A stretch of DNA of 64,000 nt from Styela clava (Eukaryota), in assembly GCF_964204865.1 (NCBI RefSeq), contig NC_135263.1:9424001-9488000 (forward strand), written 5' to 3'. The first letter of the stretch is position 1, and each line of letters begins with the position of its first letter. The translations under genes were made by a program, and so were the position numbers. The notes under the pieces were generated by a model that was given only the letters and a program-made list of their open reading frames with translations, made no database searches and was not told the origin of the DNA. Positions 8,445 to 44,254 of this stretch are shown in pieces.

Positions 8445-9687
<1,243 letters not shown>

Positions 9688-11690: not shown

Positions 11691-13193
11691 ATGTTCAGTC
11701 GCTCAATCCTCGCATATATATTTCTTATTATGAGTTGCTCATTTCACATATCGGCATCCAGTTCTGTATGTAAGCAAGTTGAAAACGTTTGGGAAAATTT
11801 GTGTTCTGAAGATAAGGAATCATCTGTTGCTATAGAAATCGCTCAGGGAAGACCAGGGAAAAGAGGCCCACCGGGCCAGAAAGGTGACACAGGAAAAACT
11901 GGCCCACCAGGTCCGCCAGGAAATTGGGATTATGAGGAAATTCAAAAGAAATTTGATCGAAAACTTCAGTCAGGTATTGATTTAATAAAAGGGCTGCGCT
12001 TGTAATACTAATCTAATTACCGGAAGACTCTTATAGATTGACTTCTACACACATTATCGGTAAATGTTGACCATTTGAATTTCAGTCGAAGAAAGACACA
12101 ATAAGGAAACAAGGGAATTGAAAGAAAGAATCAATAGAATGGAAAGCATTATGGAAACTATAAATAAGGAAATGACTACTGCAACTCAAGAAAGTAAAGA
12201 AAACTTATTTGTTACTCTGTTAAACAATTTTTATGAAGTATCGTCACGTTTACGTTGACCATAAATTAAAATGGTTATTTTTATCCTGTTACGATTACGA
12301 TGTGCTGTATGGCGATATAATGATTTGCCTCTCATTTTTTGTAATTGATTTTTTTGAAATTTTAAATAGTGCCAAAGCAGCTTTTCCGATTCCGTTTCAA
12401 ATGGACAAGAGTCAATCGTATTATGGATCAATGTTATTTGATGAGTGAAGCAATAAAACTTTTAATTTATAATTACCATTGGAAAATAATACGATTAATC
12501 AAGTCAATTTCTTGAAAATCATATTGGTCCAATAACGTGATGAGGTTACTTCTATATACCAAATCTTTAGGATGTCTACAGAATGCTTACCATTTCACCA
12601 GCGGTGATCAAATAAAGGATTTTATTCGCGTGAAAACAGTCGTGCCAACCATAACATCTATAACCGTTTGTGCATGGCTGAAACCTCCAAAAGGAAGCGT
12701 CGTCAAAGGCAGCTTGATAAGTTATGCAACATCAGCAAGTTCGAATGCATTTTTAGTTTATTTTAACGAAAAAAACGAACTGCAGGTCTTTCTCAACGGC
12801 GAAGCTAACCACAAGACGATATCTGTGCGCTTGGAAACTAAAACTCATTTTTGTGTATCTGCTGTACCAGTCGCCGGCTTTGCTGATGTATACATCAACG
12901 GAAAACTGTTACTCAGACTGAAATCTACAGAGAAAAGAAATCCTGTAGTTGGAGGAGGTTCTTTGATAATTGGACAAGAGCAAGATTCTGTTGGTGGAGA
13001 TTTTGCAGCATCACAATCGTTTGCTGGCACTATTGAAAGTTTCATGATGTGGTACAAACAGCTAGATTCCAATCAAATAAAAGATTTATATGAAAACAAG
13101 TGTCCATGCTACAAAAAGGACACAAATGCTATTGATGGCAAATTTCTAATCGAAGGCAAAGTTCAATCTGAAATCAAAGTCTGCAAGTACTAA
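11691..13193 (+). CDS. Secreted collagenous pentraxin: signal peptide + C-x10-C + 9 Gly-X-Y triplets + coiled-coil neck + pentraxin domain; exons 11691-11973, 12086-12193, 12571-13193 (337 aa)
   Basis: Exon 1 MFSRSILAYIFL..CKQVENVWENLC..QGRPGKRGPPGQKGDTGKTGPPGPPGNW; exon 2 VEERHNKETRELKERINRMESIME; exon 3 ITVCAWLK..LISYAT..HFCVS..YING..GGSLIIGQEQDSVGGDF..QSFAG..MW, a pentraxin motif set. Both introns are phase-1 GT-AG and the frame is open to TAA. Confidence 0.88.
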
Positions 13194-13316
13194 AACAATT
13201 TATATAAAGCATATATATATGATGCATAAAAATGATATATGTACATGAATAAATATCTAATCAACTGTAAAATTGACAACATTATTGTAAGATTTTGTAT
13301 ATATATATTGCTTATG

Positions 13317-14257
13317 CAGGGTGGTCCAAGATTGCGAGGTTGTCGGGCCGCAAAAACTTTTGAGGATGCCTCGCGGGCCGCAGTCGGAGAAAACCCTAAA
13401 GTGATCGAAACATCGGGAGTTTGCTTACTTTGAATATATTTGAAAATGAGAGTTTATCGTTCTAATCAGATTTTTAAGGAAGATAAATAACGCCTTTTGT
13501 TATTTTAAAATTGCTTCCCGAGAAATTCCGTGGTATTTTCGATATCTTTTCTCATCTTTGGTTTTGTAATGTCTTAAAATTAAATTCTTATGTGACAGAT
13601 AATACATGAAAACACACCAGACAATGTGGTTTACGTTGTTGTGGGCAAGGGAATACGTTTCCTCCCAGTTTACCTCGATCACCTTTTTTACACTCATTGT
13701 ATGATAAATTGTTATATTTGACTAATTTTATGACTTGAAATGGCCAGGTGCTATTGTCAAAGAACGACCAAGTCCGTCTAAGTTGGGACTCCGGAACCAG
13801 CCTAAAAAATTGGTTAGTACGGCGCCAGGTCAGCTCTGTGGATCGTCACTGCTGTCATATGGCCAACGCTTGAAAATAGAGGAGTGTTTTTACTAAATTG
13901 AAGACACTAAACGTCTCTCCAAATGAGGAGTTACTTGATGCGAGCTTAAGGTACGAAGTTCAGATAAAAAGCGCTACTCGTCTCATCGGCTTGGTCCTGT
14001 CTGTACAAGACAATTCATTCTCCTTGTATACCGATCACTGGACGTCTTTCCCATATTGGCACCGTCTTGCCGTTTATAGATACAACGTTGAAATCTCATG
14101 ATTTTAACAAACATCAGTCCCGACATGGGGATTAGGAAAAAGGCTATTCCCGGTTAGAATAGTTTAAAAATAATTTCTACTAATGGTTTAAACATTGATG
14201 CACGCTAAAATTGTTCTGCGGGCCTCACGAAATGTGTCCGCGGTTTGGACCACGCTG
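13317..14257. mobile_element. hAT (Charlie-like) non-autonomous element
   Basis: Termini CAGGGTGGTCCAA / TTGGACCACGCTG. Subterminal GCGGGCCGCA motifs are shared with the 26674 element. Degenerate TSD GCTTAT(A)G. Confidence 0.75.
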
Positions 14258-14905
14258 GCTTATAGTATTCAATTTTATTTAAGCTCCGACTCCTATTAAA
14301 AAACTGACATAAGATAATCATAGCCTATATAGTATCAGGGGTGACCAACACGTCGATCGCGATCGATCGCCACCTCTCGAGCAGTCGATCGCGTCTGGTG
14401 TGAATTTTATTAAAATACCCCCAAAAATTGCCTCCATATAGTTGTGTGTTTTGCAACTGGGAGCATACAGTACTTTACATGCAAAATACAATATACACAT
14501 ACCGTATTTGAGTTTGGGCAAGCCCGATAAAGCATATTATCACGCAATAAATGCAAGTTCTTCCGCTGCCAAGTTTTAAAAATGAAGTGCCGAATATCGC
14601 GTGTCTAGACCAGGGTTATATTGGCTTTTTAACGCCAAATTTCAGAATTTCGGCTTTTTCTGAAACACATTTGGCGTCGGAATTTCTGTTTGGCTTATTC
14701 TTGGCTTTTTTGATGTTCATTCTACTGTCTATTATTAAAATTATTTAAAATACAATACCGGTATTTGTTGTGCAGCAATAGCAAACTCAGCTACTCAACA
14801 TTTAGATTTTCTCCTCACCACAATCAATCAAAATGAAGCCAACAATGACATGTGCTATCGATTAGGTTGGACTATGAGGAAGTCTGACCTTGGTCAGACG
14901 AAACG

Positions 14906-15548
14906 TGTTAGATTTGACCTCGCACGCCTCACACTTTTGTCCATTTATATTTCTCTATTATATTAACTATCCCAGACGAATTATTTTCTATCTTTATTAT
15001 CTTGATTTTCTGTTGACGGTGACTCATTATTGCGCCATAGTGAAGAAATAGGGAGTGAAACTTTCCCCGGGTTTTGAGATACCGGTAACGCTTTCTGACT
15101 CTTTGTTCTATACGGCACTGTGGGATTGCAAAAGTGTCGTTTAGTATTGAGATTTGTCTTGGATATAGTTTACATTAGGAGTGCGGGTTTCGTGAAATCT
15201 GTTATATTAATTTAGCTCAGTAAGGTCCTATTTATTATTGGTTATTATTGCTTGTCATTGTGAATGTTATTTTGTCATTCTTTCATTGGTTGTTTATAGT
15301 GCATCCGTGTCGTTATAAATTAGTTTTATCGTTGGTCTTCAAGTTTCTGTGCTGTAGCAACATTTTACTCATATGTGGAGATTGATGAATACAGTTCGTT
15401 TTCTAAGGATCTCGTTGCCTCTTTACTTTGGTTGTGCAGTTACTAGAAGCTGGGAGATTGCGCATAATTCTTCAAGGCGGGTGCGGGTGCAAATAGGACT
15501 CCACTACAACAACGTTGAGTGGATTGGAATTCACGTTCCAACTTTACA
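14906..15548 (+). repeat. 5' LTR (643 bp)
   Basis: Direct repeat of 24550-25187. By eye the differences are one substitution, one 1-bp indel and one 6-bp indel. Confidence 0.96.
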
Positions 15549-15879
15549 TTGAAATAAAACTAATATTCGATTGACCTACTTTGAAGAACATCTGACTACT
15601 ATTCTCAACAATGGCTTCAAATGTTTCTAAAGATATTGTTGATGAATCGTCTGGTGACATCACCATTCCTGCAGTTCAAGCTCGACAATTTTCATTGGGT
15701 CAAACAACAAAGGATGATCATCTACGTCAAGCAAATGACCATTATGGACAAACTTTTACGGATTTGAATAACATTTTTGCACAACTTATTCTGGATAAGC
15801 AAAATCAACAAAGTGTTACTTTACATTATCAGAAAGTATGCGATCATCTGAACAGTTGGAAAATTTATTTGGAGAATTA

Positions 15880-16712
15880 GGGTGGCTTACCCACTTTGCG
15901 GCCATGACCTATCTGCGACCATCAACTTCATCGATTAAATTAATGCCGAAAAAATTAACGAACCGCGACGATATTTCACACGCGTTATCGTCCACTTATC
16001 CCTCGGAGCTCTGCGAAATTACACTAAAATGCGGCCACAAATAAAAAAGTTACGACCGAAATCCTGACCGAAGAAAAAAAACGGACCATTTTACCATGTC
16101 GCCAACTACCCATTGTTCCCTCAAAGAAGCTTGAAAATTCATACAACTATAAGAGATAAAGAGATGAAACTTGGCAGGTGGGTAGAGTTGTGTTTCTTTT
16201 AACCATCTTTAAAGTTTCGCGTTTCTACCTTTAAAGGAGGGGGAAGTAGGGGGGTGCGCATTTCCAATACGTCAATAAAATCTTTGTCAACTAATTTGCG
16301 ACCACCGTGTTTTTGTCTGTTTGATTGCTGTGATGCGGTGCTTTGTTTATAATTTGAAGAATTTTGTTTGAAATAACCGTGTTCTTAAAATATATGACGG
16401 TCAGAAATGCAATTAGAAGCCCATTTTTTCACGCATGGCTGCGTATGCCCTAGTCTCGACGCAGCAGAAACGATGTTCAAGGCTTGAAATCCGTGATCGC
16501 ACACTGGTCGTTCGGTCGCAAATACGTCTTCAGAGTGTCGTACTTTGGTGGTTTGTATAGCTTTAACCCCTGGTCGTAGAAAGTTAATTCGAAGTTCAGC
16601 GTGTAGAATAAATGCCAATGCACCTACGGTGGAAAAATTAACGTGCTAGAAATATTGTTTTTTGTTTTATAGCGGTTTGAATGAAATCGTCCGCAGACTG
16701 GCTACACCACCC
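15880..16712. mobile_element. Unclassified non-autonomous DNA element (833 bp) with TA target duplication, inserted in BEL gag
   Basis: Imperfect TIRs GGGTGGCTTACCCACTTTGCGG and (reverse complement of right end) GGGTGGTGTAGCCAGTCTGCGG, with TA on both sides. Removing the element plus one TA restores gag ...IYLEN-YILNNGLDQ in frame. Confidence 0.85.
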
Positions 16713-17872
16713 TATATTTTAAATAATGGACTTGATCAACATGTGGCAAAATTACACCTGACTCAGGTTGTGGATAAATTGAAATCATGTGACATGATTT
16801 ATCGCCAATATTTGGACTCCTGTGTTAAAGAAGCCGACATTAGTTACATTTCCAAACGGTCAATATCTCATTTGTCGAAATCTAAATCTTCTTCATCATC
16901 TTATAGAAGACTGGAGAAATCAAGAATGTTAAAACTTGAAGCATTACAAGAAAGAGAACTAGCGGCGCAAAAGCAAAGATTAGCAGAGATGAAAGCAAAG
17001 TTTAAAGAACAACAAGCTCAACTGCTTGATGAACTGTCAAGTGACAGAGACTCTTCTACCTCCAAGTCAATTTTGGATGTTGACACCGTCATTTCAGCAC
17101 AGGATGTCAAATTTAGCCACTCAACTGAAGTGAGTCAGAGACCTAGTTCAGTTCCACTTTTGTCTAACAATAATTTGGAAAATGCAGGTATACGTTCTTA
17201 TTTGAATTCGTCTTTTAATGTTTTACAACCATCGTATTATCCTTTATCTACTGTTAATGCAGTTCAGTCTTCAACCCCATGCAGTGTTGTAGAGTCTAAC
17301 CAATTTTCTAATGCAAATATTTCACAGTTGCCATACAGTGCACCTAATTTTGTTGACAATAATTTTTCTGCCATTATACCTACCCCTGTGATTAGCACAG
17401 CTGTTATTACTGTCCCTGATAGGTTTACGGGGCCGGTGTATTCACAACCTATAATTTCTGTCCCACAGCGGCTCATTGCCCCAGCTGATACTATGTCTTT
17501 TGATTACAATAGGCCAGACATATTTTCTCATGTTAATGTAACTATGCCTGTTGTATCGCAGGCCCATACTAGTGCTTATTTTTCAACATTTTATAGTAGT
17601 TTTCCACAGGCTGGGCCAAATACTATTACCACTGTTAGTAGTTTGCCTCCAGGCCCTGTTTATACAAACTCATCTCGGCAGATAACATCAGTGTTACCTC
17701 CCTTAACAAGACCTGTAGGACCATACTTACCTCATCCTACCATTTCAAATGCCTTGTGCACAAATACTGCCACAATTCCATCTTTCATACCTCCTTATAT
17801 GTCAAGCTCACAATTACCTCACCCTACCGTTATGAGACAACCTTCCTTACCTTCCCCTAACGTTATCCATCA

Positions 17873-19058
17873 TCCAGGGACGGTCGCTGCGCTACCCGCG
17901 AGGGGAAATGTAAGAAAGAGATTTGAGTATAAAGGAGCATATGTTTCATTATGAGTTTGTTGGATGCATCAGGGTCGTTGCGCCGGACGAATGGCGGAAA
18001 TTCGTCCGGCGCGTAGCCCCCAGCCACTTTGGTTCATTAAGTAGTTTAAATAACACGTCATAAACTGATCACTCTTGATGAATGTCGATTTTTATCAATT
18101 TTGAGGTCCGTGATCACTCGACCGTGACGAAATTTTTTAGGCATAAACTTCACTCCAACTACCTTGTACACCCCAAATATGAGACCCCCAACTATTACCG
18201 TTCTCGAGATATGGCAGAAAATCACTGGACCGTGACTGAAGGCTACTAGAAAAAAAATTCCGCTGATACGCGATTGGAATAATTTTTCTGATCATGCCCA
18301 TGCCTTTAGATTATTGATAAGACCTTCCAGAAGCCGGCAAAAGGCCAAAATCACTAGACCGTGACGGAGGCATGGGAGCAAAAAAATTTTCTTAAAAAAG
18401 TATTAAACTAAATTTTCTCAACCTACCTATGTATTTTTTTTTCTCAATATCTCAAATCTTAAGCGCAACATTCCGAACTCACTGGGCCGTTACGGGGAAG
18501 GGGAATCCCCAAAGTTCGGGTGGTAATATATTCTATTAATTAGTCCCTTTGATATTTAGGCATCACTTTGCCCGAAAACCGATTCCAAGTGCTCCTAATC
18601 GCCCAAAAACCATATTACCTAAGTGGGCGTGGCTTTCCACACGTTTTCTCACCACTGAGGGGGCGGTGGCGGTGCCCCCACCCCCAAAAATACTTGGAAA
18701 AATTTCCAATACTCGGGCAAACACTTTCTGGCCCCGGAAACAGAGGCAAACGGCCTCTAAACCCCAAACTCACTCTTGCGTGACTTGACTGACAGCCGAT
18801 TGACCAATAAGCAGCTCCGGGCCACTAAAATCCCGTTTTGGCCCACTTCCTTTGGCCCGATCGCTCCCAAAAATTTTCTGTGTCAGTTTGGTAACTACCC
18901 CCCGCTTCATGCCAAATTTCGTCAGGATCGGCCCGCCAGTTCTCTGGGAAATGGTAATTCAAGTGCTCTCACCTAAGATACTTCGTACCAATGACTTTCG
19001 TGCAACGAATTCTGACTTCAACTTTGCATTCGCACTTTTAGTGCTCTATGTTGCCTGA
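17873..19058. mobile_element. About 1.19-kb non-coding insertion in BEL gag with internal tandem subrepeats (possibly Helentron/HINE-like)
   Basis: Flanked by the direct repeat CCATCA (17867-17872, 19059-19064); excision joins ORFs 16662 and 19048 in frame (PNVIH-QAASKDD). The unit TCACT.GACCGTGAC recurs at about 18114, 18222, 18351, 18478. Terminal hairpin GCACT-TTT-AGTGC. Confidence 0.65.
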
Positions 19059-22000
19059 CCATCAAGCTGCCAGCAAAGATGATTTGTACCTTCTGGGAAG
19101 AAATATTCAACAAGAATTCCGCTTGCCAGCATTGGATAAAGTAGAATTTGCTGGTGATCCATTAGAGTATCATGCATTTATAAAATCTTTCTATAACACA
19201 ATTGGACGTCTCACATCTGATCCTTCTACATTGTTGGCACAATTGTTTGCTCACTGCAAAGGTGAGGCATATGAAGTAATTAAGCACTTGCGAATGGCTG
19301 ATGACCCAGCACAAGCATTTCATGCAGCTAAGGACACTTTAGAATTTCATTTTGGCAATCGATCACTGATCATCAGCACATTTATGAAGCAACTTACTGA
19401 AGGACCGAAAATTCGTGTAAATGACGTCAAAGGACTTTGCAAACTATCATCACAGATGCGTAACTGTTCTATTGTGTTTGACAATTGGAATGCAGGGAAT
19501 TTACTCGATGCCCCAGCATATCTTGTTGCTATCTTTGAACGGTTACCTCCTAATATGCGTACTGACTATGTCATGAATGGCACATGGACTTCATTCACAA
19601 TCCCGTCATTCAATCATTTGCTGAAATTTATTGAGTCTAGAGCTCGTTTGTACAACACATTTTATGGTCGCACTCTGGCAGAATTGGTGACAAAATCATC
19701 TGGTCATAAAGGATACATTAACAAGCGTCCATCGAAGTTTTCTACATTTACCACTTTAAGTACGCCAAAACCGGAACCTAACTTCAAACAAAATTACAAC
19801 AAAACTAATAACTCTGGCAAGAATGGCAAATCTGCTTTGTTTTGCTATCTTTGTAAAGGCGATCACATTCTGATGCGCTGTAACAAATTCCAAGAGAAGA
19901 GCATTTCTAACAGACGACAATTTGTAAAGGACCAGTCTATTTGCTTCAATTGCATGTCATCCAAGAAACATTTTTCTAGCAGTTGTCCTTCAGAGAAGAG
20001 GTGTCTAAAAGAAGGGTGTGGTGGACTTCACCACACTCTGTTACATTTGGAGCAGGTAGCCAAGCAGCCTGCGTTGCATCAGTCGCGTTCTAAGGAACCA
20101 TTACATGCACCTCAAACTGAAACAACCTCTGTGAATTCTATGTCTGTACTCAACACTTTGTGCCCTGTTCGACTCATGGCTGTTGCTGTTGAAATACATT
20201 TACCTGACGCAAGTGATAAGAAGAAAACAATTGCTTTCTTGGATCTAGGATCTCAAAGATCATTTTGCTCTACTCGTCTAGCGAAATCTATTGGCCTTTC
20301 TGGTAAACCAGAGCATTGCATGATCCGCACTACAAATGGTGTTGCTGTTCATACTGGAGAAAGAGTATCATTTCGCCTAAATGGCGTGAATAATACTAAC
20401 ATTGTTGAAGTACACAATGCTTTAACTTTTGACAAAATTCCTGACGTCAGAGATTCATTGCCAAAGCCGGATATAATTGACAAATATCCTCATTTGGATG
20501 GTTTGAAGTTCCCAGATATTGATGGCGATGTTGAACTATTAATTGGGGCAGATACCTTGGGTAATTGTCCATTTACTGATTCCCGAGTCGGACCTCCTGG
20601 TACTCCAGGAGCCTTGCTTACATGTCTTGGATGGTGTCTCTTTGGCAAAGATCCATCAATGAAATCTGATAATAATTCCCTAAATTATATTAACACTTCT
20701 GTGCCTATGATATCTGATGTACAGAATTTACAAAGTGATGTAGCTGTGAATTTTATTTCTACTACTCTTCCATTGCTATCATTTAATGACACTTCATGCG
20801 ATACTTGCATGTCACCTCAAAGTCTTCCAGAAGAAGATCACAATTTGCAGGAGGAAGAAGTTGCATGTGATAATTGCAAAATCATTACCAAGCCGGAAGT
20901 GACAGATTGTCAGAGGACGGAAAGCAGCAAATTGAATGGTTGTGATTTTTTCTTTATTTGTTCCACATTGCATGATGATATCCTGGATGAGAGTGATGTT
21001 AACCGTGAAATTGCTGTCTGTCAAACTTGTGGAAATGATTTTGCTGATATGAATGCAGATCCATTAACAACACAACCTCCTTTGGATGATGAACGAGCTA
21101 CACAAATTATGAATGATACTTTGAAGCGTGTTGACGGACGATTGCAAATTGGTTTATTATGGAAATATGATGATATTAAATTACCGTACAACTATAACAT
21201 GGCTCTCAAACGTCTCATGTCTGTCAAGCGAAGAATGGAGAAGGATGCTGAATTTGCTACAAAGTACATTGAGAAACTGGATGAATATATAAAGAATGGA
21301 TATGCTGAACAGATACCAGAAGATGAATTGGCACCTACAGAGAGAACCTGGTTCATTCCACACCATGCAACAAGACAATCGAAGTTTCGTGTTGTCTTTG
21401 ACAGTTCAGCAGAGTTTGATGGAAAATCACTGAACAAGAATTTACTATCAGGACCTGATTTCAATAACTCATTAGTTGGAGTTCTTCTACGCTTCCGTTT
21501 GAACCCCATTGCTGTGTCGTGTGACATTCGACAGATGTTTCACAGAATATTGGTAAAGCGTGAAGATACACAATCTCTTCGTTTTTTATGGTTTCCTACA
21601 CATGATCTTACAAAACCTGTTTCTCAATTTAGAATGCTATCTCATGCCTTTGGTACTACCTGCTCACCTTCTATTGCAACCTTTGCCCTACGAAAGGTTG
21701 CAGAAGATAATTTATCTAATGCTGATCCGACCGCTGTTCAATGCATTTGCTCTAATTTTTATGTAGATGACGGATTGTTTTCAAAGGATACTGTAGAGGA
21801 GACTTCTACACTAGTTCGACAAACTATTGATTTACTGGCAACAGGAGGTTTTCACTTAACTAAATTTTTAAGCAATGAACCAGAAGTTCTACAATGTGTT
21901 TCTGAGGAAGACAAGGCTCCCGTTGCTCATGCTCTGGAACTAGGCGATGATGCGGTGAGTCGTACTTTAGGATTGAATTGGAATGCAGCCACTGATCAAT

Positions 22001-24549
22001 TTGTTGTTATCGTCAGAATTCAGGAACGTCCTCCTACTCGTCGTGGCATATTATCAATGGTGTCGCAGATATTTGACCCTCTTGGGTATGTTCAACCATT
22101 TGTACTTGCAGCTCGTATCATTCTGCGCAAGATCTTTGTTATGAAGAATTTCAATGGGATGATACAATTACTGGCCCTCTTAGAGACAAATGGGAAGAAT
22201 GGTCATCTAAATTACCTTCATTGAATGGGATATCATTTTGTAGATGCTACAGACCAAAAGGATTTACTCCATCTACTTTTCAGTTACATGTATTTTGTGA
22301 TGCAAGTTCTTTTGCATATGGAACTTGTGCTTATTTGAAAATAATTGACGATACAGGAAACATTCACACTGCATTTGTTAAAGGCTCGTCAAGGGTGGCT
22401 CCAAAGAAAGTTGTAACGATACCACGTCTTGAACTGACTGCAGCGGTTGCTGCTACAGAATTGGCGAGATGCATAAAATTGGAATTGAATGAAGTGATAA
22501 CAGATGTATTTTTCTATACGGATTCAATGAAAGTTCTTCGAATGATAAACAGTCGATCTGAACGTTTCAAAACTTTTGTTGCTAATCGATTGAATACAAT
22601 TCACTTGCTTTCTCAACCTAGACAATGGCATCATGTTGACACTAAGTCTAATCCAGCAGATATTGCCAGTCGTGGACTAATGCCTGACAAGTGCCACAAA
22701 GCTGATTGCTGGTTTAAAGGACCTTCTTTTCTGAGAAGCAAGGAACCATTGAGAAATTCACATATTTCTGAAACAATTGAGGACTCTGAAATATGTTCTG
22801 AAGTGAAAGTTAATTATATTGAGATTTCCTACAAGGACAAGAATTCTACAATACAACAACCTGGACTTATGCTGTTGTTGAAACGTTACTCTAAATTTGA
22901 AAGACTTGTTTCGTCTGTGATATGGCTTCAAAGATTCAAGACTTACATGATTGGGAAATTGCTACATCGTTCTGGTTCTCCAGTTACTGGTTGTTTTACT
23001 GTTGCAGAACGGGAAAATGCAACTATAGATATTGTGAAACTTATACAAGCAGATTCGTTGTCTGCTGAGCTTTGCTATTTTAAAGATATGATGAGTTCGG
23101 GCCCTCCACCTTCTGACAGAAAGAGACTTAAATCGCCATTTGCTAAAGAACTTTTGCAGTGTAATCCATATGTGGCTGATGGCATACTTCGAGTTGGAGG
23201 CAGGCTTCGTCAATCTGAATTACAACCTGATCAAAGGAATCCTGTAATTTTACCCCCATATCACCATGCCACTAGACTTCTGATCGATTATTACCACTGT
23301 GAACATGGACATTGTGGAAGCAATCAAGTACAGGCTTATTTGTTACAAAATATTGGATATTGCATCTTCAGTCAGCGGTGGCAAAAGTTCTTAGAGAATG
23401 CATGCCATGCAAGATTCGATCTGCCAGACCTGGTAAACAATGGATGTCAGATATGCCTGCTGTTAGGCTTTGTACAGGAAATAGACCATTCTTTCACAGC
23501 TTCGTTGATTATTTTGGTCCTATAAAGGTCAAGTTGGGCAGAAGCGAACATAAGCGTTACGGAGTTATATTCACTTGTCTTTCTACTCGAGCAATTCATC
23601 TGGAGGTTGCAGAGAGTTTGGATACCTCTGCATTTTTACAAGCCTTTTTTCGTTTTGTCTCGCGACGTGCAAGACCAGCTCACATGTACTCTGACAATGG
23701 TACGAATTTTATTGCTGGAAGTAAAGCTCTCAAGGATGGAATTACAATTGGAATAAGAAACAAATTGACAATGCTCTTGCACAAAAGGGAATTCAATGGC
23801 ATTTTTCACCACCTCTTGCAAGTCACCAGAATGGAGTTGTTGAAAGATTGATCAGAGAAGTTAAGAAGATTCTGAGGAATATGCTTGATGATAAACCATT
23901 AACCGATTATTCACTTTGGTCTTTTCTGGCTGGAGTGGAATCCATCTTAAATGACAGACCCCTTACCCGAGTAAGTAATGATCCCAGAGACCTCCATGCC
24001 CTGTCACCCAATTCTATTTTACTAAGTAAATTAGATCCTGATCTACCCCCTGCTGTTTTTCTGCGAGCTGATGAGTATAGACAGGGCTATAGACATGTCC
24101 AGCGGTTGTTGGATATGTTTTGGCAGAGATTTACTAGGGAATATTTACCTCTGCTTCAGAAACGCTCAAAGTGGTTTCATCCCTCCCCTAACCTGAAGAC
24201 TGGTAACTTAGTACTTATGTGTGATGACATACTTCCCCGTGGTAGTTGGCCAATGGCTGTTGTGGATGAGGTTTATCCTGGTAGACTAGGCATTGTGCGT
24301 AGGGTGAAGGTACGAACCTCTAAATCTACGTTCATGCGTGATGTTAGGAAGATATGTTCACTTGAACTTGATTAAATGTCTAATTGATGATTATTCATTT
24401 TGTTTCTGTATATTACATTTCACATTTTTCCATACACAATTTCGTATTCATCATTTTCCTATTTGGTTTACTTATATGCTTTGTGTTCGGCTACTTCGAT
24501 CACCTCTTTTATTGAGATAATTATAAGTCTAAATTATCTGGGGCCGGAA

Positions 24550-25187
24550 TGTTAGATTTGACCTCGCACGCCTCACACTTTTGTCCATTTATATTTCTCT
24601 ATTATATTAACAATCCCAGACGAATTATTTTCTATCTTTATTATCTTGATTTTCTGTTGACGGTGACTCATTATTGCGCCATAGTGAAGAAATAGGGAGT
24701 GAAACTTTTCCCCGGGTTTTGAGATAACGCTTTCTGACTCTTTGTTCTATACGGCACTGTGGGATTGCAAAAGTGTCGTTTAGTATTGAGATTTGTCTTG
24801 GATATAGTTTACATTAGGAGTGCGGGTTTCGTGAAATCTGTTATATTAATTTAGCTCAGTAAGGTCCTATTTATTATTGGTTATTATTGCTTGTCATTGT
24901 GAATGTTATTTTGTCATTCTTTCATTGGTTGTTTATAGTGCATCCGTGTCGTTATAAATTAGTTTTATCGTTGGTCTTCAAGTTTCTGTGCTGTAGCAAC
25001 ATTTTACTCATATGTGGAGATTGATGAATACAGTTCGTTTTCTAAGGATCTCGTTGCCTCTTTACTTTGGTTGTGCAGTTACTAGAAGCTGGGAGATTGC
25101 GCATAATTCTTCAAGGCGGGTGCGGGTGCAAATAGGACTCCACTACAACAACGTTGAGTGGATTGGAATTCACGTTCCAACTTTACA
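24550..25187 (+). repeat. 3' LTR (638 bp)
   Basis: TGTTAGATTTGACC...CTTTACA, direct repeat of the 5' LTR. Confidence 0.96.
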
Positions 25188-26673
25188 AAACGTTATAGGA
25201 ATATATTTGTGTTAGTATGCAGCAAGACTATTGAATCACTTAGAATGACATAACAATTGCAGTTTTTGCAGCCGCTCAGACAGATGTTCAAGCAGGCTTC
25301 GTTTTCATAGTTTTGCGTGTTACAGTGTTATTTGTCAGTTTTTAGTTATGTTTCCAAAAAATAGTTGTATGCCTTAATTCAGTAATTGTATTTTGCCTTC
25401 CGAGAAGCTTTAGTTTGGTTGCGGTAATCAAAATTCTCGCAAACGACGTGATTATCTAGGCTAAAATCATCTATCAGTAGACTAAATGTGCAAGCGGCAC
25501 GTGGTTAGATAATTTTAGTAAAAACGATGCCTTCAAAAATGTGAAGCAGTTTATAATCGCCAACACTTCAAACCAATCATAAATTGCAATAGTAGCATAT
25601 CGGGAGAATTTTCTGAAGTATATATATATATATCGCAAGTTAAAGAGAAACATGTGCATTTATTCGTCCTAAAGCGGTATACATGATGTATTGTATATAC
25701 CTGAATTCAAAAAATAGTGCTGTCCGCTTAATATATATTCCCTTTTTTGGCTTTTTGATGTTTTTAAATTTTTTATGTGGATGCCAGCTTAACTGTATTA
25801 TGTCGGATATACATTCTAATTCTGCCATTCAATAATCCTTCTTAGTTGTAAACCCTTAATCGTGCTGAAGTGGAAACCATCATGATAGCAACCTAAACTA
25901 CAAATTTTAGTAGGATTTAACATTTGATGTGGCTCACAAAATCAACTGATGGTTCTGAATCAGCATATTGCGAACTGTGCAAATCGACAATTGTGCTAGG
26001 AGTTTCAAATCATGAGTTTTTTTTATATATACTTGTTAAAATTTTTGACTTTTCTTCGTCTTGATTTAGCTTTTTTTCATCACTTGAATATAGCAAACCT
26101 GGTCTAGAATAGACTGACAAATGATGCTACAATACCTTCCGCAGTATGCGAAAGTTATTGTCTCACTCCACGTGTGATGGATTTTATTCGCAATGGTAGC
26201 AGTGGTATCAAAATGCCCAAGTTGTTCTAATTCTAAGCAATCGAAGAATCGTGTTTGGAGGAAATTGTAAATTAGATACTGAAGTTTGATCAGTCATGTA
26301 ACATTCATAGTTTGAGAAAAAATTGCCATATTGAGTGCCCTTTCTTTTTTGTGTAGGACCTTATTACCGATCAGTCGATCGATCTTTTTTGAAGATTTTA
26401 GTCGATCGCGGTAAGAAGCATGTTGGCCACTCCTGGCCTATACGATAACATTACTGAAACATTATACGAACATAAAAGCTTTTGCAACTCATATAAAAAA
26501 AAGTTGTGACGTGTTAATACAAAAAGTCTTAAAGTTCCGAATAGTCCGAATTTCTGAATTCCTGAAAAGCCTGTTTTTATTGTATATTCTGCAATTCTGC
26601 TTAGTATCTTTCATTCATTCAAAACAAATAAAATTTTAATTGTAAAAACATCATAGTTAATGGTTCTTTAGGC

Positions 26674-27124
26674 CAGGGGTGTGCAACCTTTTTTATTGGC
26701 GGGCCAAATACAAGTAACTGGGTGAAGCCGCGGGCCGCAACTTTATTTAATTTTGACTTTCTGGTAGGTGCAAGCACAAAAATTGCCTATATTATTTATT
26801 GATCTCACGGCATTATTAGGGGTTCTTGCAGAAATAGTAGATTTAAAACGCATAAACTTCTGAAGAAACTGCTATTTAAATTTTTTGTCACACCGACTTC
26901 AAACGAATGCAGTGAGAAACACGTTTTTGTAATATAAATCGTGTATTTTGCAACAGAATTTTGCTAGCTTGTTTTGCTAATATGACTGGTATGGGCTTTG
27001 CGACGAAAAAGAATAAATACTCGTTTTGCGGGTACACCATTCGAAATTGTTATTTCTCCGCGGGCCGCATAACTTCTTCTTGCCGGCCGCATTTGACCCG
27101 AGGGCCGCAGTTTGCACACCCCTG
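26674..27124. mobile_element. hAT (Charlie-like) MITE, 451 bp
   Basis: TIR CAGGGGTGTGCAA / TTGCACACCCCTG; perfect 8-bp TSD CTTTAGGC (26666-26673, 27125-27132). Confidence 0.93.
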
Positions 27125-27701
27125 CTTTAGGCCATTGTAGTCAAAGAGAAAGTAGTAAACGTTTACAGCAATGTTTGTGACTGCCGTATTTGTAACGTTA
27201 TTGTGAATAATAGAAAAGCGACAGCTATAGCAAAGCAACATGTATCATGCTCCCATAAAACGTGTACTGAATCAATGCAATAAAATATTGTATGTTCGGG
27301 ATTGATACTATTTGGACAGATTTATCTTTTAAACAAAGTAATTTGAAATAGTGCCCCAATAAAGGATTTATCATAATAGAATTGTTCAAGCATCAGTTGG
27401 CACCGTGAAAGGAATACAAAATGAATATTGAGTTTCGTTCGACGTGAACAAGATCCTAGATAAGTATCCAACAATGTTTACTAGACCCGTTCATTCTATT
27501 ATATAAATACGAGTGATTTACTAAACTTTGAGTGAGGCAGTGAAAATCGTAATCATTTATGATAAACTGTATTTATTTCGATCATCAAATACTGAAAAAG
27601 TTATTACTTTTTAGCTGCCATAAACAGTTATCTTCAGTTAACCGTTAGTGTAACGTTTGGAAGTAGTAGGCAGTGGAAGTAACATATCAATAAGTCTTAA
27701 A

Positions 27702-28967
27702 ATGTGTCGCCAAATTTTTGCTTTGGTATTAGTCTGCTTAGTTCAGGGACCAACCGCAGCTTTTGATAATAACCCCGCATGTCAACAAATTGAAAACTTT
27801 TACCAAACTCTTTGCTCTCGTGACGGCACACCAGCAGGAGTAACAACTAATGTTGCCTCTTATCAAGGACGTCCGGGCAAGAGAGGTCCGCCAGGACAAA
27901 AGGGTGAAGTTGGTGAAGAAGGCGCATTGGGTCCTGCTGCAATGGTGGATTATTATCGTATAGAATCAGAAATTGAGAGAAAAATTTCATTAGGTAATTA
28001 TTTCATTGCATTAGCTTTGTAATTTAGAATTTTTTATTGCACATTGGCAACTTCCCAAAAGACGAATAAAGTCGTTTTTACGTTTTACAGTTCAAAGACA
28101 ATCGAACGTAAAGTTGAATACGCTGACTGCACAAGTTGAAAATTTGAAGGAAAGAATCAGAACATTGGAACTCAGACAAGGTAATATAGAGTGATAAACT
28201 CAAAAATGAAAACCAATATTAACGAGTGAATTAATAATTTAATAATGTTAAAATTCAATCTGATCGCGAATATTTCGGCTGTTACTTTTCAGGTGTATGT
28301 GATATCAAATACGACGGAAAATGTTTCTGGGTCGAAGTTCGCGATCATTGGTTTTCTGGATATGAAGAAGCAGCCGCATTATGTGCAAAAAAGAACGGAG
28401 CTCCGGCAAATATTTATTCTGCAGAACATTTCAACTTAATTATGCCTTATTTGCGCACAAAAATAATGGCCGGAAGAGAGTACATTCATCTTTGGCTTGG
28501 GATGCGATACAACCCTCGGGTATGATTTGTATAAAGCAAACTCGAATAGAATAGTGACTTCAATGAAATATCAACTATGTGCGTGTGTTATTAAATCCTA
28601 GCTGAATATTTCTACAACATTATTGCAACATTACTAGCAGGCGAGTTATAACAATTCGTTATATTAAACTCGACCTACAAATTCACCAAATATGTGAAGC
28701 TATGAAGCTTCAGAATGATCATAAAACTTTTTCCAGGTGCAGTTTTACGAGCATTTTAATATATTTTTATTTATTCAGACCAATTTGTTGACGCTGTCTG
28801 ACGGAAGACCTGCATTGTTTAAGCAGATGTACCCAGGTTATCCTACTAAAAACGTTAAATATACACACATGACAATCGTGCAAAGAATTCCATCAAGTCT
28901 TACCAACATCGGTTTTCATAATTTCGACCCGATTTTACAAAGGGAGGGCGCTCTTTGTGAAATTTAA
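27702..28967 (+). CDS. Collectin-like protein A (signal peptide, C-x10-C, 8 Gly-X-Y, neck, C-type lectin-like domain); exons 27702-27993, 28091-28180, 28293-28519, 28779-28967 (265 aa)
   Basis: MCRQIFALVLVCLVQG..CQQIENFYQTLC..QGRPGKRGPPGQKGEVG; CTLD CDIKYDGKCFW..YEEAAALC..PANIYS..HLWLGM..ALCEI*. GT-AG junctions, AATAAA about 30 nt after the stop. Confidence 0.9.
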
Positions 28968-30274: not shown

Positions 30275-30633
30275 GTTGCATGTGACAATGTAAAAAAAAC
30301 TTGCCATCTAGTGACAAACTTAGCGATAATACAAATCCCAAATCATACGTCTGGCATTCTACGTGTATATTTGAAGACATTAATTCCAACTAACTACCGC
30401 TAAACTTCCACACTGGAATTACGATGCAACCTGTCGGCGTTCGACTTGTGCCGCCGTCTTTTCTAATTCTTATTGCGCAATTGCGTATATTGCGAAATAG
30501 TGCATTGAATCTATCATTAATTGCATAAATGAATATTAACGATGTTTTTCGGAATATCTATCAGATTATATATAAGATTGCTGCAAGTCACTCAGTTATG
30601 AAGTTAAGGGTAACTATCTATTATTTTGCTCAT

Positions 30634-33600: not shown

Positions 33601-34198
33601 TTTATTCTGTTTTCGATCGATACCAAATCGAGGCTATTTGCTCTAAGTAAGTTTTAGAGTCACATACTGCAGTCGGTTACCATAATATATCGATCATCTG
33701 GACCCGACTGCAAATCGTTTAATTGTATCAAGCCTATAGGATACGGCCTGAAGAAAATAACCGTGTTCAAGCATTGGATAAATATTATACACCCACTCCT
33801 TTGTTCCCCACCCTGTTCTTACCCAAAATGAATATAAATTTACTAGTTTTCAAAATGTAGCTTGTTAGTCTATTTGTTTAGGAAGCACTCGGGCGTTTTA
33901 GTTTTTTTGTGGTGAAATGGAAATCGCCACTGGAAGCTCTGGTCAACTTCGATCCTTATGCAGATAAAAGTGTCTAAACTAAACGACACAATCATACTCT
34001 ACCCGGTGGCCAAAACAGCAAACTTTATTTTATTAATTTTTGTTTTTTGATATTAATGAAGCCCACTGACAGTGGTAAATATTGACACTGAATCTATATT
34101 ATTAGGTGAAAATTAAAAAAAAAACGATAAATATTGATACCTTGGATTTCTTTGGAGTTTATTTCACATAAACGCTGAACGCAGTCATCTGAAGACAT
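30634..34198 (-). CDS. SCD: Stearoyl-CoA (delta-9-type) acyl-CoA desaturase-like; exons 34198-34141, 33218-33090, 32652-32522, 31983-31778, 31315-31086, 30818-30634
   Basis: Three His boxes: [46 protein letters not shown]; also VNSFAH..G.RPYD..INP. Splice phases are consistent; the first exon is less certain. Confidence 0.92.
31438..31667. mobile_element. MITE with tandem 16-bp subterminal inverted repeats, in an SCD intron
   Basis: (TACATTTGAACCCAC)x2 on the left, (TGGGTTCAAATGTAC)x2 on the right; TGGTG..CACCA ends; internal CTAACCCTAAC. Confidence 0.7.
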
Positions 34199-38636: not shown

Positions 38637-40377
38637 ATGATGATAAAGTTTAAATTGCTTAGCTTCTTAATGCTTTTTTGCTGGTCGACAGCATCCGCCA
38701 ATCCTAGTGCAGGTTGTGTGCATGCCAAGCAGTTATATCAAACCCTTTGTTCCCAAGATGACACACATGCGGAAATCGAACAAGGTCCCCCGGGAAAAAG
38801 AGGGCCTGTTGGACCGAAAGGTGAAATTGGGAGACCAGGGCCTATCGGGCCTCCAGCTGCTGTGGACTACAATCGCATTGAAACAGAAATAGAGGAACAA
38901 ATTTCATCAGGTAGGACAATTATTTATATTATTCTAAATATGCTTAACATCCCTGTGGACAACCTCATTGAATAATAAATGCAAAGAAAGTAGTGTATAC
39001 TCCTAGAATCAGACTTTGTCATTTTCTGGTATTTGGAGCGAAGAGATGCATTGATGTTTTTCAGAAAAAAAAAGCGGCTTATACTCCACATCTCAAATTG
39101 ATTAGGTATTATTAAGATATACCGAATATTAAAAACAAATAAAAAATTATCCCTTTGTATTTTCAGTTCGCAATCTTGCAAACTCGAACGAACGAACTTT
39201 TGTCTTAAAAATTGAGAAACTGGAAGAACGAATCAAAATTTTGGAAAGTAGAGAAGGTAACATAGTTTAGTCCTGAAAAATTCTTTATTGAAACAGGCAA
39301 ATATAAAACGGAGTAATGTATTTTTAATGAAAACACTGCCCTAATAGTTTGTAAAGTCCGCTCAATTGGTTACAACACCCTGGCAAGTCAATGGCCGAAA
39401 GTCGATTGCCAGACTAAATAGTGAAACAAAAGAAGATATATATATAGCGCAATCAAGCCTCTAGAACTGCTATTAGAGCGCCACACCCGCAAATATGTGA
39501 TGACAGTTGATTACACTAAAGTGTGTGATTTATTCAAAAAAAATCACATTAGCCTTTTCATTTTTTTTTGAGCAGAATACAACTCAAAAAAACCTAAAGC
39601 AATCCCAATATTTCTCACGTTTAATACCAGGCGCATGTGAGATAAAGTACAATGGAAAATGTTTCTGGACAGTGACTCTGGACCACTTCGTACCTGGTTA
39701 TGATAAAGGGGTCGCCATGTGTGCAGAGCGTAATGGATCACCAGCAAATATTTATTCTGAGGAACATTACAATATCATCATGAGATATCTTCGATCGAAG
39801 ACATTGGCAAAGCTGAGTGCTATTCACCTATGGATAGGAATGCGAACAAATCCAGCCGTATGTATCTCTCTTTCATGAATTTTAGAAAGTTTAAGTGATA
39901 AAAATATGGACCTGTCTACATAATAGTATTTGGGTAGTAATTGGAATCTTCTTTTTGAAGTTTATGGTAATAAGATCTTCACTGTTTTGACTACTTGATG
40001 TGTCCATTTGAATTGAAAAGGGATTTATCATTTTTAAATGATATTGACTACAAAAAACTGTAGATAGTGTAAGTAATAATGCACACACAATGTCTACACA
40101 TGACTAAGATTTTACTTTTAATTGTTAAATATGGCCAAATATGTTTAGTCAAGCTACGTTATGTGACAGGTAATAATATTTTTTTCAGACTGGAACTGTT
40201 ACACTTTCCAATGGAAGTCCAGCTCCATTTATGAAATGGTATCCAGGAAGTCCCTCAAAAGATCTTGCTAGAACACACATGACCATTGTTCAAAGAGTTC
40301 CATCGTCTAATCCATCCGTTGGTATTCATAACTGGCCACCAACAGCAACCCGAGAAGGCGTACTTTGCGAACTATGA
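38637..40377 (+). CDS. Collectin-like protein B; exons 38637-38910, 39167-39256, 39631-39857, 40189-40377
   Basis: Signal peptide, CVHAKQLYQTLC, QGPPGKRGPVGPKGEIGRPGPIGPP, 90-nt neck exon, CTLD CEIKYNGKCFW..HLWIGM..KWYPGSP..GVLCEL*. Exons 2-4 have the same sizes as gene A; AATAAA downstream. Confidence 0.9.
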
Positions 40378-41395
40378 AGCAATGCTGATTTACTGCATTC
40401 GTAGGGTATACCGATTGTCGAATAAAATTTAGACTTTAAAATATGTTTTCATGATTTTTGCATGGTAGAAATCCTTTTTACCCTGCTATTTTTCAAGTAC
40501 TATATCAACCGCTATCAATTGACATATCTGTAGCAAGAATAAATTTTTGTTTACATTTCCGTCAGTATTCTTTCCAATTGAACTTCATTAGAACAAACTT
40601 GTATTGAGCCTTATTCTGAGTTAAAAGGTGGTAATTGCAAAAGCACAGAATCTAGGTAAAACATATATGAGCAAGACTGAAAAAATAACTTGAACTCGAA
40701 AAATAATTTGAAAGTAATAATTTTCATCTTTTTTTGAAATTTGTCAAACAGTCATGATCAAAAATGAAAGTTGTTTAGTACTTACAATAAAACGTTATTA
40801 CAATTTTCAACCTATAGGTATTGTAAACACATAATTAGTTCAAATACATGACGCCTGCGGCATGTTCATGTGACAAGGATTTCTTTCGTAGTACTAACAG
40901 AAATTATAAATCCAAATTTATCATTATGCTATTGATTGTGTGCTGCCCAAACAAATTTTTATGCGACTATCCTGTAGAAACTTTGACCGCACTGTTGTTT
41001 AGTATGAATGGACAAACTCAATAGAAAGCACTTTTAAAAAACAAAAGTTATTCTCGATGTATGTAATTGAACGTATTGCGTTTCGAAAGATAATATTTGG
41101 TATATAAGAGTCATGCGGTATATAGCAAGCCGACGATGGTGATGTTCGTTGAATTTTTTGAGCTATTCAATTTCGATATAGATGTTACGACGAGGTCTAT
41201 ATCACGAACTAGGGTCATATTGAGTTTCCTGCTATATTAAACTCTTCTTCTGCAACCATATTTAATCATAGTGTATCAATCCTTGCATTAATGCAGGCGC
41301 ATCTTGTGTAGTACATGCTTCTGTTCATCAGGCAGCGAAGAATTTACTCAGTTTATATATTTTATATATAAATCTCTATATTATAGTTCTTCATC

Positions 41396-43516
41396 ATGAT
41401 AACGTTTAAATTGCTCAGCATCGTGGTGATTTGTAGCGCGCCGACAGCATGCTCCGATTCCGGTCCAGATTGTGTGCATGCTAAGCATCTATAGCAAACA
41501 CTTTGTAGGCAGACAGAAATTGAACAAGGTCCCCCGGGAAAAAGAGGGCCCGTTGGACCGAAAGGTGAAATTGGGAGACCAGGGCCTATCGGGCCTCCAG
41601 CTGCTGTGGACTACAATCGAATTGAAACAGAAATAGAGATACAAATCACAGCAGGTTTGACGATGATTTTTATTTTTCAAAGTAGGTTGGAAATACTTGC
41701 GTGTAACTTTTTAATAGTATATACCTCGAGAATAAATTTATCATTTGCTGTGAGGGTTTTTTAATTGGAAAGAAGATAAAAATTTATCTTATGTGAATAA
41801 AACCTCAGGAAATTGACCATGAAACACAAACCTCAAGTAGATTTCAATCATTCCCCTTTTTATAATGCATTTTGATATGATTTTTAAACTCTTCTTTAGG
41901 TATTTTTAGTATATAGCTAAGGATATAAAACAAATCAAAAGTAGTCATGTATGATCTTGAATTATCCTGTCATTTTATGTATTTTTTACAGTTCGCGATC
42001 TTGCAAACGTAAGAGAACGAAATTTTGCCTCAAAATTGGAGAAGCTGGAAGAACGAATCAAAATTTTGGAAAGTAGAGAAGGTAATCTACATGTAATAAA
42101 AACGATTAATGATACTATTTTAGTGTTATTTTTATTTGGAATGGAGCATTAAATATCGCTCAAAAAGATTTTCTGATAAAGCAGACAAGTATAAAAACGG
42201 AGATGTGGATTTTGAAATGAACAATAGTCCGCCCAATTTATTGGGCCATGATATGTCAGCTACCAAACGTCGATTGCTATGAAAGCGAACAACATAAGTT
42301 TCACTGTAATGTCAGCGCAGTCTATCTGATTGAATATTCATTAGTAAAATATGCCTATAAAACTATACAATGACACAATATTATACTAAACTGTGTAATC
42401 TATTCAACAATTTTCACAATAGCTTTTTTCAACTTTTCTTCATACTTGTCTGAGCAGCAAACGACTCAAAAAATGGAAATCTATCCTACTATTTCTCACT
42501 CTTAACCAGGCGCATGTGAGGTAAAGTACAACGGAAAATGCTTCTGGGCGGTGACTTTGGACTCCTCTATTGGTTATGATAAAGGAGTAGACATGTGTGC
42601 TGAGCGGAATGGATCACCAGCAAATATATATTCTGAAGAACATTACAATATCATTTTGAGATAACTTCGATCAAAAATATTGGCAAAGCTTGGTGTAGTT
42701 TATTTATGGATAGGAATGAGAACAAACCCAACCGTAATTATACTTACCTATAAGAAATGTCATAATATTTAAGTGTTATTAGATATTTCAATGGTTTTTA
42801 AATGCCGTAATTATAAATTTCCTCTCTGAATTTCCTCTTGGCTAGTTTTCTAAGTTTTGACGTAGTCCCGTAGTATGTGAACCCAGATGGCGTACACTGG
42901 AACGTAGTGTGTGTACCAGGTTAGGGTTAGCCATAATTTCAGGTACAAGTCATACGGGAGTCACTTGGCCAGTCCCCGAACTCGCAATCGAACTAAAATA
43001 AGGAACATTGGAATAAAATTATGGCTTAACCCTAACCTGGTTCACTTACTATGTTCAGGTGTCCGCCGTCTTGGTTCACATACTACGGGAGCGCCGTTTT
43101 GACTACCAAATTTATTTTTGATTTCCTGTTTACGTAGCCGAAAGAGATATCATTTATAGTTGTCAAAGAATCTTTCCTATCGAATATTTCGTACATTGTG
43201 GGCGTTTTAACACCATATAGTCTATAACACACGAAGAAGATTTTCAATTGAATCATAACTGATTTGCGTCAATGGCCAATCCCACATTGTTACAATATTG
43301 GTAATATATAATGTTTTTTTATTTTAGAATGTAATCGTGACACTTTCCAATGGAAATAGAGCTCCTTTTATAAAATGGTATCCAAGATATCCCTCTAGAG
43401 ATTCCGATACAACGCACATGACAATTGTTCAAAGAGCTCCAACGACTAATCCATCCGTCGGAATGCACAATATACCACCAACATCAACCCGAACAGGCGT
43501 ACTTTGTGAATTATAG
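41396..43516 (+). pseudogene. Collectin-like C, tandem duplicate of B with two in-frame stops; exons 41396-41654, 41992-42081, 42510-42733, 43328-43516
   Basis: Colinear with B. TAG at 41492 and TAA at 42662 replace Tyr codons of B; splice sites and frames are otherwise intact. Confidence 0.85.
42859..43096. mobile_element. MITE with about 80-bp TIRs containing GGTTAGGGTTAG
   Basis: TCCCGTAGTATGTGAACC...CCAGGTTAGGGTTAGCCATAATTT versus AAATTATGGCTTAACCCTAACCTGG...GGTTCACATACTACGGGA. A shorter related hairpin element lies at about 48380-48475. Confidence 0.8.
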
Positions 43517-44073
43517 AACAACAAGTGGATGTGAAGAGATTACCATTTGAATTTTTATTATGATTATTTTCTTAGACTGTTCTGGCATTCCAGAACTATG
43601 ACGCAGGTGTTTCTATGGCAATGTTGAATTGCTTCAAGTTTCTTTTCAATCGCTATGGAATCTATTTCTTTCGGTATCAGAAATGCTTTCTTTATTATTA
43701 GAAATGTAAATTTTTTTTACTGACTGTCCCAAAGTTAAGTTGAGCATTTTCTTGTGATAGAATAATGAAAAAATATATTATACTTCTGTAGAACGAATAT
43801 CATGTATAGCGTCTCCATTTGCTTTATTCTATTCAATTTCGTAAGCGTGTTTCATATCCCCAAATAATAAAAAAGCTCAAAGCACTCTCAATATTTTAAC
43901 GAGCCCTGTACGTGTCAATCGGGACTATTGAAGTAGAGTAGTATGAAATTGATAGAGAGAAATATTTAATTATTTATATCGACGTCTAGTATTTATGTCA
44001 AATTATTTATGTTGCTCTCTGTCACATGTAGTATCGAATTAAGTGGATAAGTATCAAAAATAGCACGAGACAG

Positions 44074-44254
44074 ACAGGAGAAGTGATACGATTTAATGGA
44101 AATAGGGCATCATTCATAAAATGGCACCTAAAATCCACCAACAACCCCAGGCAATACACACATGACAATAGTTCAAAGAAGCTCTACCTCCCTCCAACAT
44201 TAGTATACATTACTTAGACGTCATCATGAAAAGACGTTCTTTGCGAGCTATTGA
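44074..44254 (+). pseudogene. Orphan, decayed copy of the collectin last (CTLD) exon
   Basis: TGEVIRFNGNRASFIKWH...ACACATGACAATAGTTCAAAGA...GTTCTTTGCGAGCTA aligns to exon 4 of A/B/C but is frameshifted. No matching upstream exons were found. Confidence 0.7.

What the first reader, a model, noticed from the sequence alone, without database searches (positions are those of the whole stretch)
11691..44254. Modular immune cluster: one stalk, interchangeable recognition heads, ongoing birth and death
Seen: four same-strand genes share exon 1 (signal, C-x10-C, PGKRGP collagen, DY..I...I/F), a symmetric phase-1/phase-1 neck exon (108, 90, 90, 90 nt) and a phase-1 entry into the head exon. The set comprises one pentraxin head, two intact CTLD heads, one pseudogene and one orphan exon. 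The 14.5 kb between the pentraxin gene and collectin A is almost all transposon; removing it leaves about 1 kb, so they were adjacent tandem genes. Inference: phase-1 symmetry makes the stalk a shuffling cassette, and shared stalks might allow hetero-oligomers with mixed heads.
Basis: partly seen in the sequence, partly recalled or inferred. Interest (0 to 1): 0.7.

Follow-up and report, generated by a model that had tools for sequence, protein, structure and literature searches.

The report
Pentraxin head on a collectin stalk
A sea-squirt gene, spliced in RNA contigs, joins a collectin-type collagen stalk to a pentraxin head, likely through an old gene fusion; it is one of many collagen-stalked proteins in this genome that carry six kinds of head and would let different microbe sensors trigger complement.

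Summary
The gene anatomy is confirmed. Four same-strand genes share a signal/C-x10-C/PGKRGP-collagen/DY exon and a phase 1-1 neck exon. One ends in a pentraxin exon; this junction is spliced in contigs from two studies, and the protein equals NCBI Styela clava XP_039265256. About 13.5 of the 14.5 kb before collectin A is repeat DNA. With collagen masked, the stalk matches collectin stalks (top 13 of 62), not other collagen-pentraxins, so it is an independent fusion. The genome holds at least 145 stalk-like matches. Heads include C-type lectin, discoidin, fibrinogen, intelectin, pentraxin and WSC-like domains, entered at phase 1 wherever checked. Corrections: (1) swaps are rare and old, as head type tracks stalk type; (2) exon 1 is not a symmetric cassette; (3) a desaturase gene splits the cluster; (4) the 'pseudogene' is intact in another annotation; (5) the lectin heads lack canonical calcium motifs; (6) nothing supports mixed-head oligomers. 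Collagen-pentraxins are already deposited (Halocynthia CRP-c, Ciona, Clavelina), though my searches found no paper on them. Likely function: MASP-docking recognition protein, untested. An earlier scan note saw the same lysine motif in ficolins on other DNA.

The parts
11691..11973 (+). Gene P exon 1: signal peptide, C-x10-C, 9 Gly-X-Y triplets with PGKRGP, start of DY neck; phase-1 donor
12086..12193 (+). Gene P neck exon, 108 nt, phase 1-1, predicted helix
12423..12499 (+). 77-bp copy (72 of 77 identical) of the start of collectin A's 3' UTR inside P intron 2; only two copies found in the genome; recent, not the fusion scar
12571..13193 (+). Gene P pentraxin exon, phase-1 entry
13317..14905 (.). 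Two genome-wide repeats; the second is split by the LTR element
14906..25187 (+). Bel/Pao-type LTR retroelement; LTRs 14906-15548 and 24550-25187, 98.8% alike; coding region broken over several frames
25188..27141 (.). Second half of the split repeat (to 26442) and a high-copy short repeat (26661-27141)
27702..28967 (+). Gene A: collectin-like, 4 exons, non-canonical CTLD; equals P0180
30442..34583 (-). Unrelated fatty-acyl desaturase gene (three His boxes) lying between A and B
38637..40377 (+). Gene B: collectin-like, 4 exons
41396..43516 (+). Gene C: two stops in this assembly; intact in annotation P0190, so likely a null allele
44071..44254 (+). Orphan, frameshifted remnant of CTLD exon 4

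Best explanation
Gene P is a spliced chimera of a collectin-type collagen stalk and a pentraxin head, likely made by an old fusion at a shared phase-1 intron, and it would work as a secreted trimeric recognition protein that docks a MASP protease on its collagen lysine and so triggers C3. SHOWN: exon structure, splicing, phases, pentraxin fold, collectin-type stalk, and a second, different stalk type on other ascidian collagen-pentraxins. INFERRED: a collectin's 5' half (promoter, signal, collagen, neck) was joined to a pentraxin exon, which in this genome is entered at phase 1 in every case checked, so the join needs no frame repair. PREDICTED, untested: three chains assemble through the neck and collagen helix; the Cys pair links chains; PGKRGP binds MASP CUB domains as in MBL and ficolins; the three pentraxin heads bind a microbial or damaged-self ligand. 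P is one case of a genome-wide family in which a few stalk subtypes carry six head folds, with rare head exchange and frequent tandem duplication and loss.
For: Splicing: both P junctions in 3 of 3 RNA-like runs. Allele differences in those contigs: 7 synonymous, 5 non-synonymous, with 21% synonymous sites (p 0.006, no correction for transition bias). Fold: Pfam Pentaxin 102.7 bits; Foldseek NP1 and CRP at E about 1e-14; helix over residues 81-129. Stalk origin: with collagen masked, the top 13 of 62 matches are CTLD-headed (z 8-18), while the five other collagen-pentraxin stalks score z 1.2 or less. Trees put P with A/B/C and related collectins (89/95 and 87/90, not starred). One clade of all five pentraxin stalks is rejected (AU p 0.015), as is one clade of all CTLD stalks (p 0.02) or of the two intelectin stalks (p 0.009). 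Head origin: nearest heads are collagen-free pentraxins on C9 (45%). Phase 1: best donor after the stalk exon in 57 of 59; candidate acceptor of 12 of 12 pentraxin exons; head-entry intron in 10 of 10 annotated proteins that could be placed, of 33 tried. [quoted passage not shown] MASP and C3 transcripts are reported in ascidians (PMC5465252, passages).
Against: No binding, oligomer or complement data. No S. clava MASP gene was pinned down (the CUB search gave 125 unspecific matches). In mammals Xaa is generally aliphatic, here it is Arg. The motif count is inflated because the stalks were found with P's exon 1. Only 8-9 triplets, so helix stability is unproven. Stalk trees rest on 79 columns: P joined with L071 (p 0.088) or with the ficolin-type stalks (p 0.19) is not rejected, and groups were named after the tree was seen. 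P's head grouping with the C9 pentraxins is not starred (90/71). The runs are only guessed to be RNA and their tissue is unknown. PMC11312191 (passages) says complement activation by urochordate collagen-bearing MBL and ficolin is still unclear.
Confidence: 0.62

Rival explanations
1. The chimera is real, but the collagen is only a trimerisation and spacing device (opsonin, agglutinin or matrix tether); there is no MASP docking.
For: Short collagen. The motif may be an inherited start-of-collagen sequence, and its count is biased by the search. No MASP partner was shown. Heads A and B lack canonical lectin motifs.
Against: The lysine is kept across stalks only 30-45% identical and across all six head classes, and it matches the experimentally mapped site.
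Confidence: 0.22
2. One reading: shared stalks co-assemble into hetero-oligomers with mixed pentraxin and lectin heads.
For: P, A and B junctions all occur in runs X1 and X5. Collagen motif and neck spacing are similar.
Against: P-A stalk identity is 36% and P-B 34%, with 9 vs 8 triplets and 108 vs 90 nt necks. Whole-sample contigs do not show same-cell expression.
Confidence: 0.1
3. Collagen-pentraxin is ancestral in ascidians; P kept its stalk from that ancestor and only resembles collectins, while the collagen-free pentraxins lost theirs.
For: Collagen-pentraxins occur in Halocynthia, Ciona and Clavelina. Collagen is scattered on the head tree (7 changes for 7 rows). AU p 0.088 for P with L071.
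Against: P's non-collagen stalk parts show no similarity to those stalks (z 1.2 or less), while L071 does match Halocynthia CRP-c (z 10). P has C-x10-C and a DY neck, shared with collectins.
Confidence: 0.06

Closest known systems
Halocynthia roretzi 'C-reactive protein c' (BAF49232.1, P0043) and its likely S. clava counterpart XP_039259462 (P0020/L071); also Ciona XP_002121231 and Clavelina XP_076806633, XP_076805675
   Same: Signal peptide, short collagen, helical neck and pentraxin head; P0043 and P0020 also carry GRPGKRG.
   Different: Most have a CxC neck and none has C-x10-C or a DY neck; P0020 has no separate neck exon. P's stalk is collectin-type, so P is a separate fusion.
Collectins / MBL, including ascidian MBL-like and Styela plicata collectins (PMC5465252, passages)
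   Same: Cys segment, collagen with the MASP motif, helical neck, globular head; A and B have a CTLD.
   Different: P has a pentraxin head. The A/B CTLDs fall below the Pfam cut-off and lack EPN/QPD/WND (motifs recalled). The collagen is only 8-9 triplets.
Ficolins and C1q ('defence collagens'; PMC11312191, PMC2856262, passages)
   Same: Same design of a collagen stalk with an exchangeable globular head; ficolin-type genes are in this genome.
   Different: Those papers list three heads (CRD, fibrinogen, C1q). Here discoidin, intelectin, pentraxin and WSC-like heads also occur.
Long pentraxins NPTX1/2 and PTX3
   Same: Pentraxin domain behind a helical N-terminal extension; best PDB matches are NP2 and NP1.
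   Different: No collagen and no MASP motif in them (recalled; the PDB matches cover only residues 148-308).

Membership tests
Pentraxin (gene P) | Pentraxin domain sequence and fold | tested here: met
   Pfam 102.7 bits vs cut-off 25; Foldseek NP1, NP2, CRP
Pentraxin (gene P) | Calcium-binding residues | tested here: inconclusive
   GQEQD and the following Q align with NP1/NP2; that these are calcium ligands is recalled; other acidic positions differ
Pentraxin (gene P) | Cyclic pentamer or higher oligomer | not tested
   No complex model was obtained; a collagen stalk implies three chains (inference)
Collectin | N-terminal Cys segment, collagen and helical neck | tested here: met
   helix 81-129 modelled for P only; collagen below the Pfam cut-off because short
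Collectin | C-terminal C-type lectin domain | tested here: inconclusive
   A and B: Lectin_C E about 5e-4, below cut-off. P: not met, so P is not a collectin
Collectin | Canonical calcium/sugar site (EPN or QPD, WND; recalled) | tested here: not met
   absent from the A, B and C proteins
MASP-activating defence collagen | [quoted passage not shown] | tested here: met
   PGKRGP in 4 of 4 window genes; motif from PMC2856262; hydroxylation not testable
MASP-activating defence collagen | MASP binding and C3 activation | not testable with these tools
   needs protein work; the S. clava MASP gene was not identified
Symmetric-exon shuffling cassette | Whole module bounded by same-phase introns on both sides | tested here: not met
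   only the neck exon is 1-1; exon 1 holds the start codon
Fixed pseudogene (gene C) | Disabled in the species | tested here: not met
   P0190 is an intact 253-aa version with 8 further differences

The most novel reading that the evidence does not exclude
Ascidians use one MASP-docking collagen stalk as a universal adaptor: pentraxin, discoidin, intelectin and WSC-like folds have each been fused to it (pentraxin and intelectin twice independently), so complement is triggered directly by at least six recognition folds, including a trimeric pentraxin that needs no C1q.
Probability: 0.35. Interest if true: 0.75.

Novelty: new variant of a known kind. Interest (0 to 1): 0.52.

Why it matters
In vertebrates pentraxins reach complement through C1q. 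A pentraxin fused to its own protease-docking stalk would short-cut that step in our closest invertebrate relatives. The papers I read passages of list three collagen-linked heads. This genome shows six, with repeated independent fusions, which makes the question of how the lectin pathway gains new sensors testable with a few recombinant proteins and one lysine change. The local cluster itself (duplication, null allele, transposons) is ordinary.

Tried and rejected
(1) The 77-bp 3' UTR copy as the scar of the fusion: rejected. It is 93.5% identical with sharp edges and no flanking homology (best flank z 1.7), while the P and A collagen motifs differ at 6 of 9 four-fold sites, and two of its five differences are shared with A alleles in runs X1/X2. 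(2) A headless alternative last exon at 12370: no junction listed; one low-depth unspliced contig covers 12379-12600. (4) ESM Atlas for the WSC-like head: not available; Pfam WSC is only E 0.037. (5) CUB search for MASP: unspecific. (6) The head-only homologue search returned 2 of 168 candidates and missed known paralogues, so it cannot date the fusion; the 50%-cluster library hides close orthologues. (7) No further stalk, CTLD or pentraxin match in 10 kb on either side of the window. (8) Literature: nine searches ran (searches are ten in all; two were about MASP and pentraxin structure); none listed a paper on ascidian collagen-pentraxins. No search on collagen-discoidins ran. The recalled amphioxus immune-repertoire paper (Genome Research 2008) is not held and may describe such architectures. 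No supplements were read. (9) No run on record as RNA was listed. X10 shows B but no A contigs; this is not used as evidence.
Full report
Observation. Model P (337 aa) is identical to an NCBI protein labelled Styela clava, and model A to another. The P head is a pentraxin by Pfam, by sequence against the PDB and by fold. The A and B heads are weak C-type lectin matches below the curated cut-off and lack the canonical calcium-site motifs (recalled motifs).

Is the chimera real? Contigs from three runs guessed to be RNA (two studies) skip both P introns at GT..AG, and one contig spans 11685-13216 spliced. The fourth run reads through both introns unspliced. Twelve coding differences in those contigs split 7 synonymous to 5 non-synonymous against 21% synonymous sites, which suggests purifying selection on a small sample. 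A and B junctions occur in the same runs X1 and X5; tissue and cell type are unknown.

The spacer. An LTR element of Bel/Pao type fills 14906-25187, with a 5-bp target duplication. It splits an older repeat whose halves are contiguous elsewhere in the genome. Two more repeats flank it. The cluster is not continuous: a spliced desaturase gene lies on the minus strand between A and B. Gene C has two stops here but is intact in another annotation, so it is likely a null allele. The orphan exon is real. A 77-bp copy of A's 3' UTR sits in P intron 2 and was found at only these two places. It is much younger than the stalk divergence, so I read it as a recent short-range copy, not the fusion scar.

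Genome-wide catalogue. P exon 1 gave 145 matches among 150 scored of 234 candidates, a lower bound. I examined 30 short loci and 60 longer regions and took 59 stalks forward. Head labels: 36 divergent CTLD (one, L121, by eye only), 1 canonical CTLD, 12 discoidin (10 by Pfam, one by likeness to L110, one unchecked), 4 fibrinogen (3 by Pfam, one by eye), 2 intelectin-type (L128 matches intelectin-1 at E 3e-44; L139 by motif and weak Pfam), 2 pentraxin and 2 WSC-like (E 0.037 only). Stalk-discoidin proteins are annotated: 23 of 120 listed rows are S. clava entries with PF00754, some being alleles. The intron after the stalk exon is predicted phase 1 in 57 of 59. The head-entry intron is phase 1 in 10 of 10 annotated proteins placed, of 33 tried, and 12 of 12 pentraxin exons have a phase-1 acceptor candidate. 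The phase is thus inherited family-wide, including in collagen-free pentraxins.

Where P's halves come from. Trees on 79 columns place P's stalk with A, B, C, a large collectin array 6 Mb away and a collectin on C13 (89/95, which left out the partial row L081; 87/90, 36 rows), without starred support. A collagen-masked comparison is clearer: the top 13 of 62 matches are CTLD-headed, and the other five collagen-pentraxin stalks are at background. The C13 collectin is closest (45%; 9 triplets; 108-nt neck), though a clade with the neighbours is not rejected. P's head is nearest to collagen-free pentraxins on C9 (45%; support 90/71). One clade for all five pentraxin stalks, all CTLD stalks, or both intelectin stalks is rejected (p 0.015, 0.02, 0.009), but P with L071 or with ficolin-type stalks is not (p 0.088, 0.19); the groups were named after seeing the trees. 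Head type is strongly clustered on the stalk tree (8 changes, minimum 6, shuffled mean 21.7). Both halves are under 50% identical to their nearest relatives. Head exchange is therefore real but rare and old; what is ongoing is duplication and loss.

Mechanism. [quoted passage not shown] G-K-x-G is in 57 of 59 stalks, a count biased by how they were found. Ascidians express MASP and C3 (PMC5465252, passages), but complement activation by their collagen-bearing lectins is called unclear (PMC11312191, passages). I commit to a secreted homotrimer that presents three pentraxin heads and docks MASP (0.62). Rivals: spacer-only collagen (0.22), mixed-head oligomers (0.10), ancestral retention (0.06). 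Trimer formation and MASP binding are untested.

Known versus new. Six other collagen-plus-pentraxin proteins were among 151 held after the representative search: S. clava, Halocynthia 'C-reactive protein c', Ciona, two Clavelina and one unnamed. The architecture is therefore deposited, and P is a second, independent route to it. Searches listed no paper on it; PMC12549020 (passages) concerns cnidarian polydoms. The library lacks most subscription papers, no search on collagen-discoidins ran, and no supplements were read. Verdict: a new variant of the defence-collagen design, interest 0.52.

Noticed in passing
G000 C1, C2, C3, C6, C13, C16, C17, C18 (e.g. L096, L112, L115, L122, L129): Large family of secreted short-collagen plus single discoidin (F5/8 type C) proteins, annotated only as 'lactadherin-like'; one similar unnamed protein (P0331) from another record.
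   Followed up: partly
L128:6285-8700 (G000 C16) and L139 (G000 C8): Collagen-intelectin genes on two different stalk types (AU p 0.009 against one clade).
   Followed up: partly
L087, L092 (G000 C5:17.46-17.48 Mb); P0185: Collectin-type C-x10-C stalk carrying an unassigned head with a faint WSC match: a second head swap on this stalk type.
   Followed up: partly
L071 (G000 C2:19.96 Mb); P0020: Second collagen-pentraxin of this genome; its stalk matches Halocynthia CRP-c.
   Followed up: yes
window 12423-12499 and 28967-29043: 77-bp recent copy shared by P intron 2 and A's 3' UTR, starting at A's stop codon; direction and mechanism unexplained.
   Followed up: yes
window 39629-41989: In run X5 one deep contig runs from B exon 3 through the intergenic DNA into C exon 1 and its first splice, with a one-base loss in C exon 1: possible read-through and another broken C allele.
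   Followed up: no
window 27500-29130: Run X2 holds gene A as one fully unspliced contig with 44 differences, while its B and P contigs are spliced.
   Followed up: no
L096 (G000 C13:14.72 Mb): Annotated discoidin model P0219 goes from the stalk exon straight to the head with no neck exon, in frame.
   Followed up: no
window 30442-34583 (-), 9310-9687 (+), 56100-57719 (+): Neighbouring ordinary genes: fatty-acyl desaturase, an Arf-family GTPase exon, and intronless TMEM135.
   Followed up: partly
G000 C18:15.2-15.9 Mb, C6:13.27-13.60 Mb, C18:16.03-16.08 Mb: Large tandem arrays of near-identical collectin-like genes.
   Followed up: no
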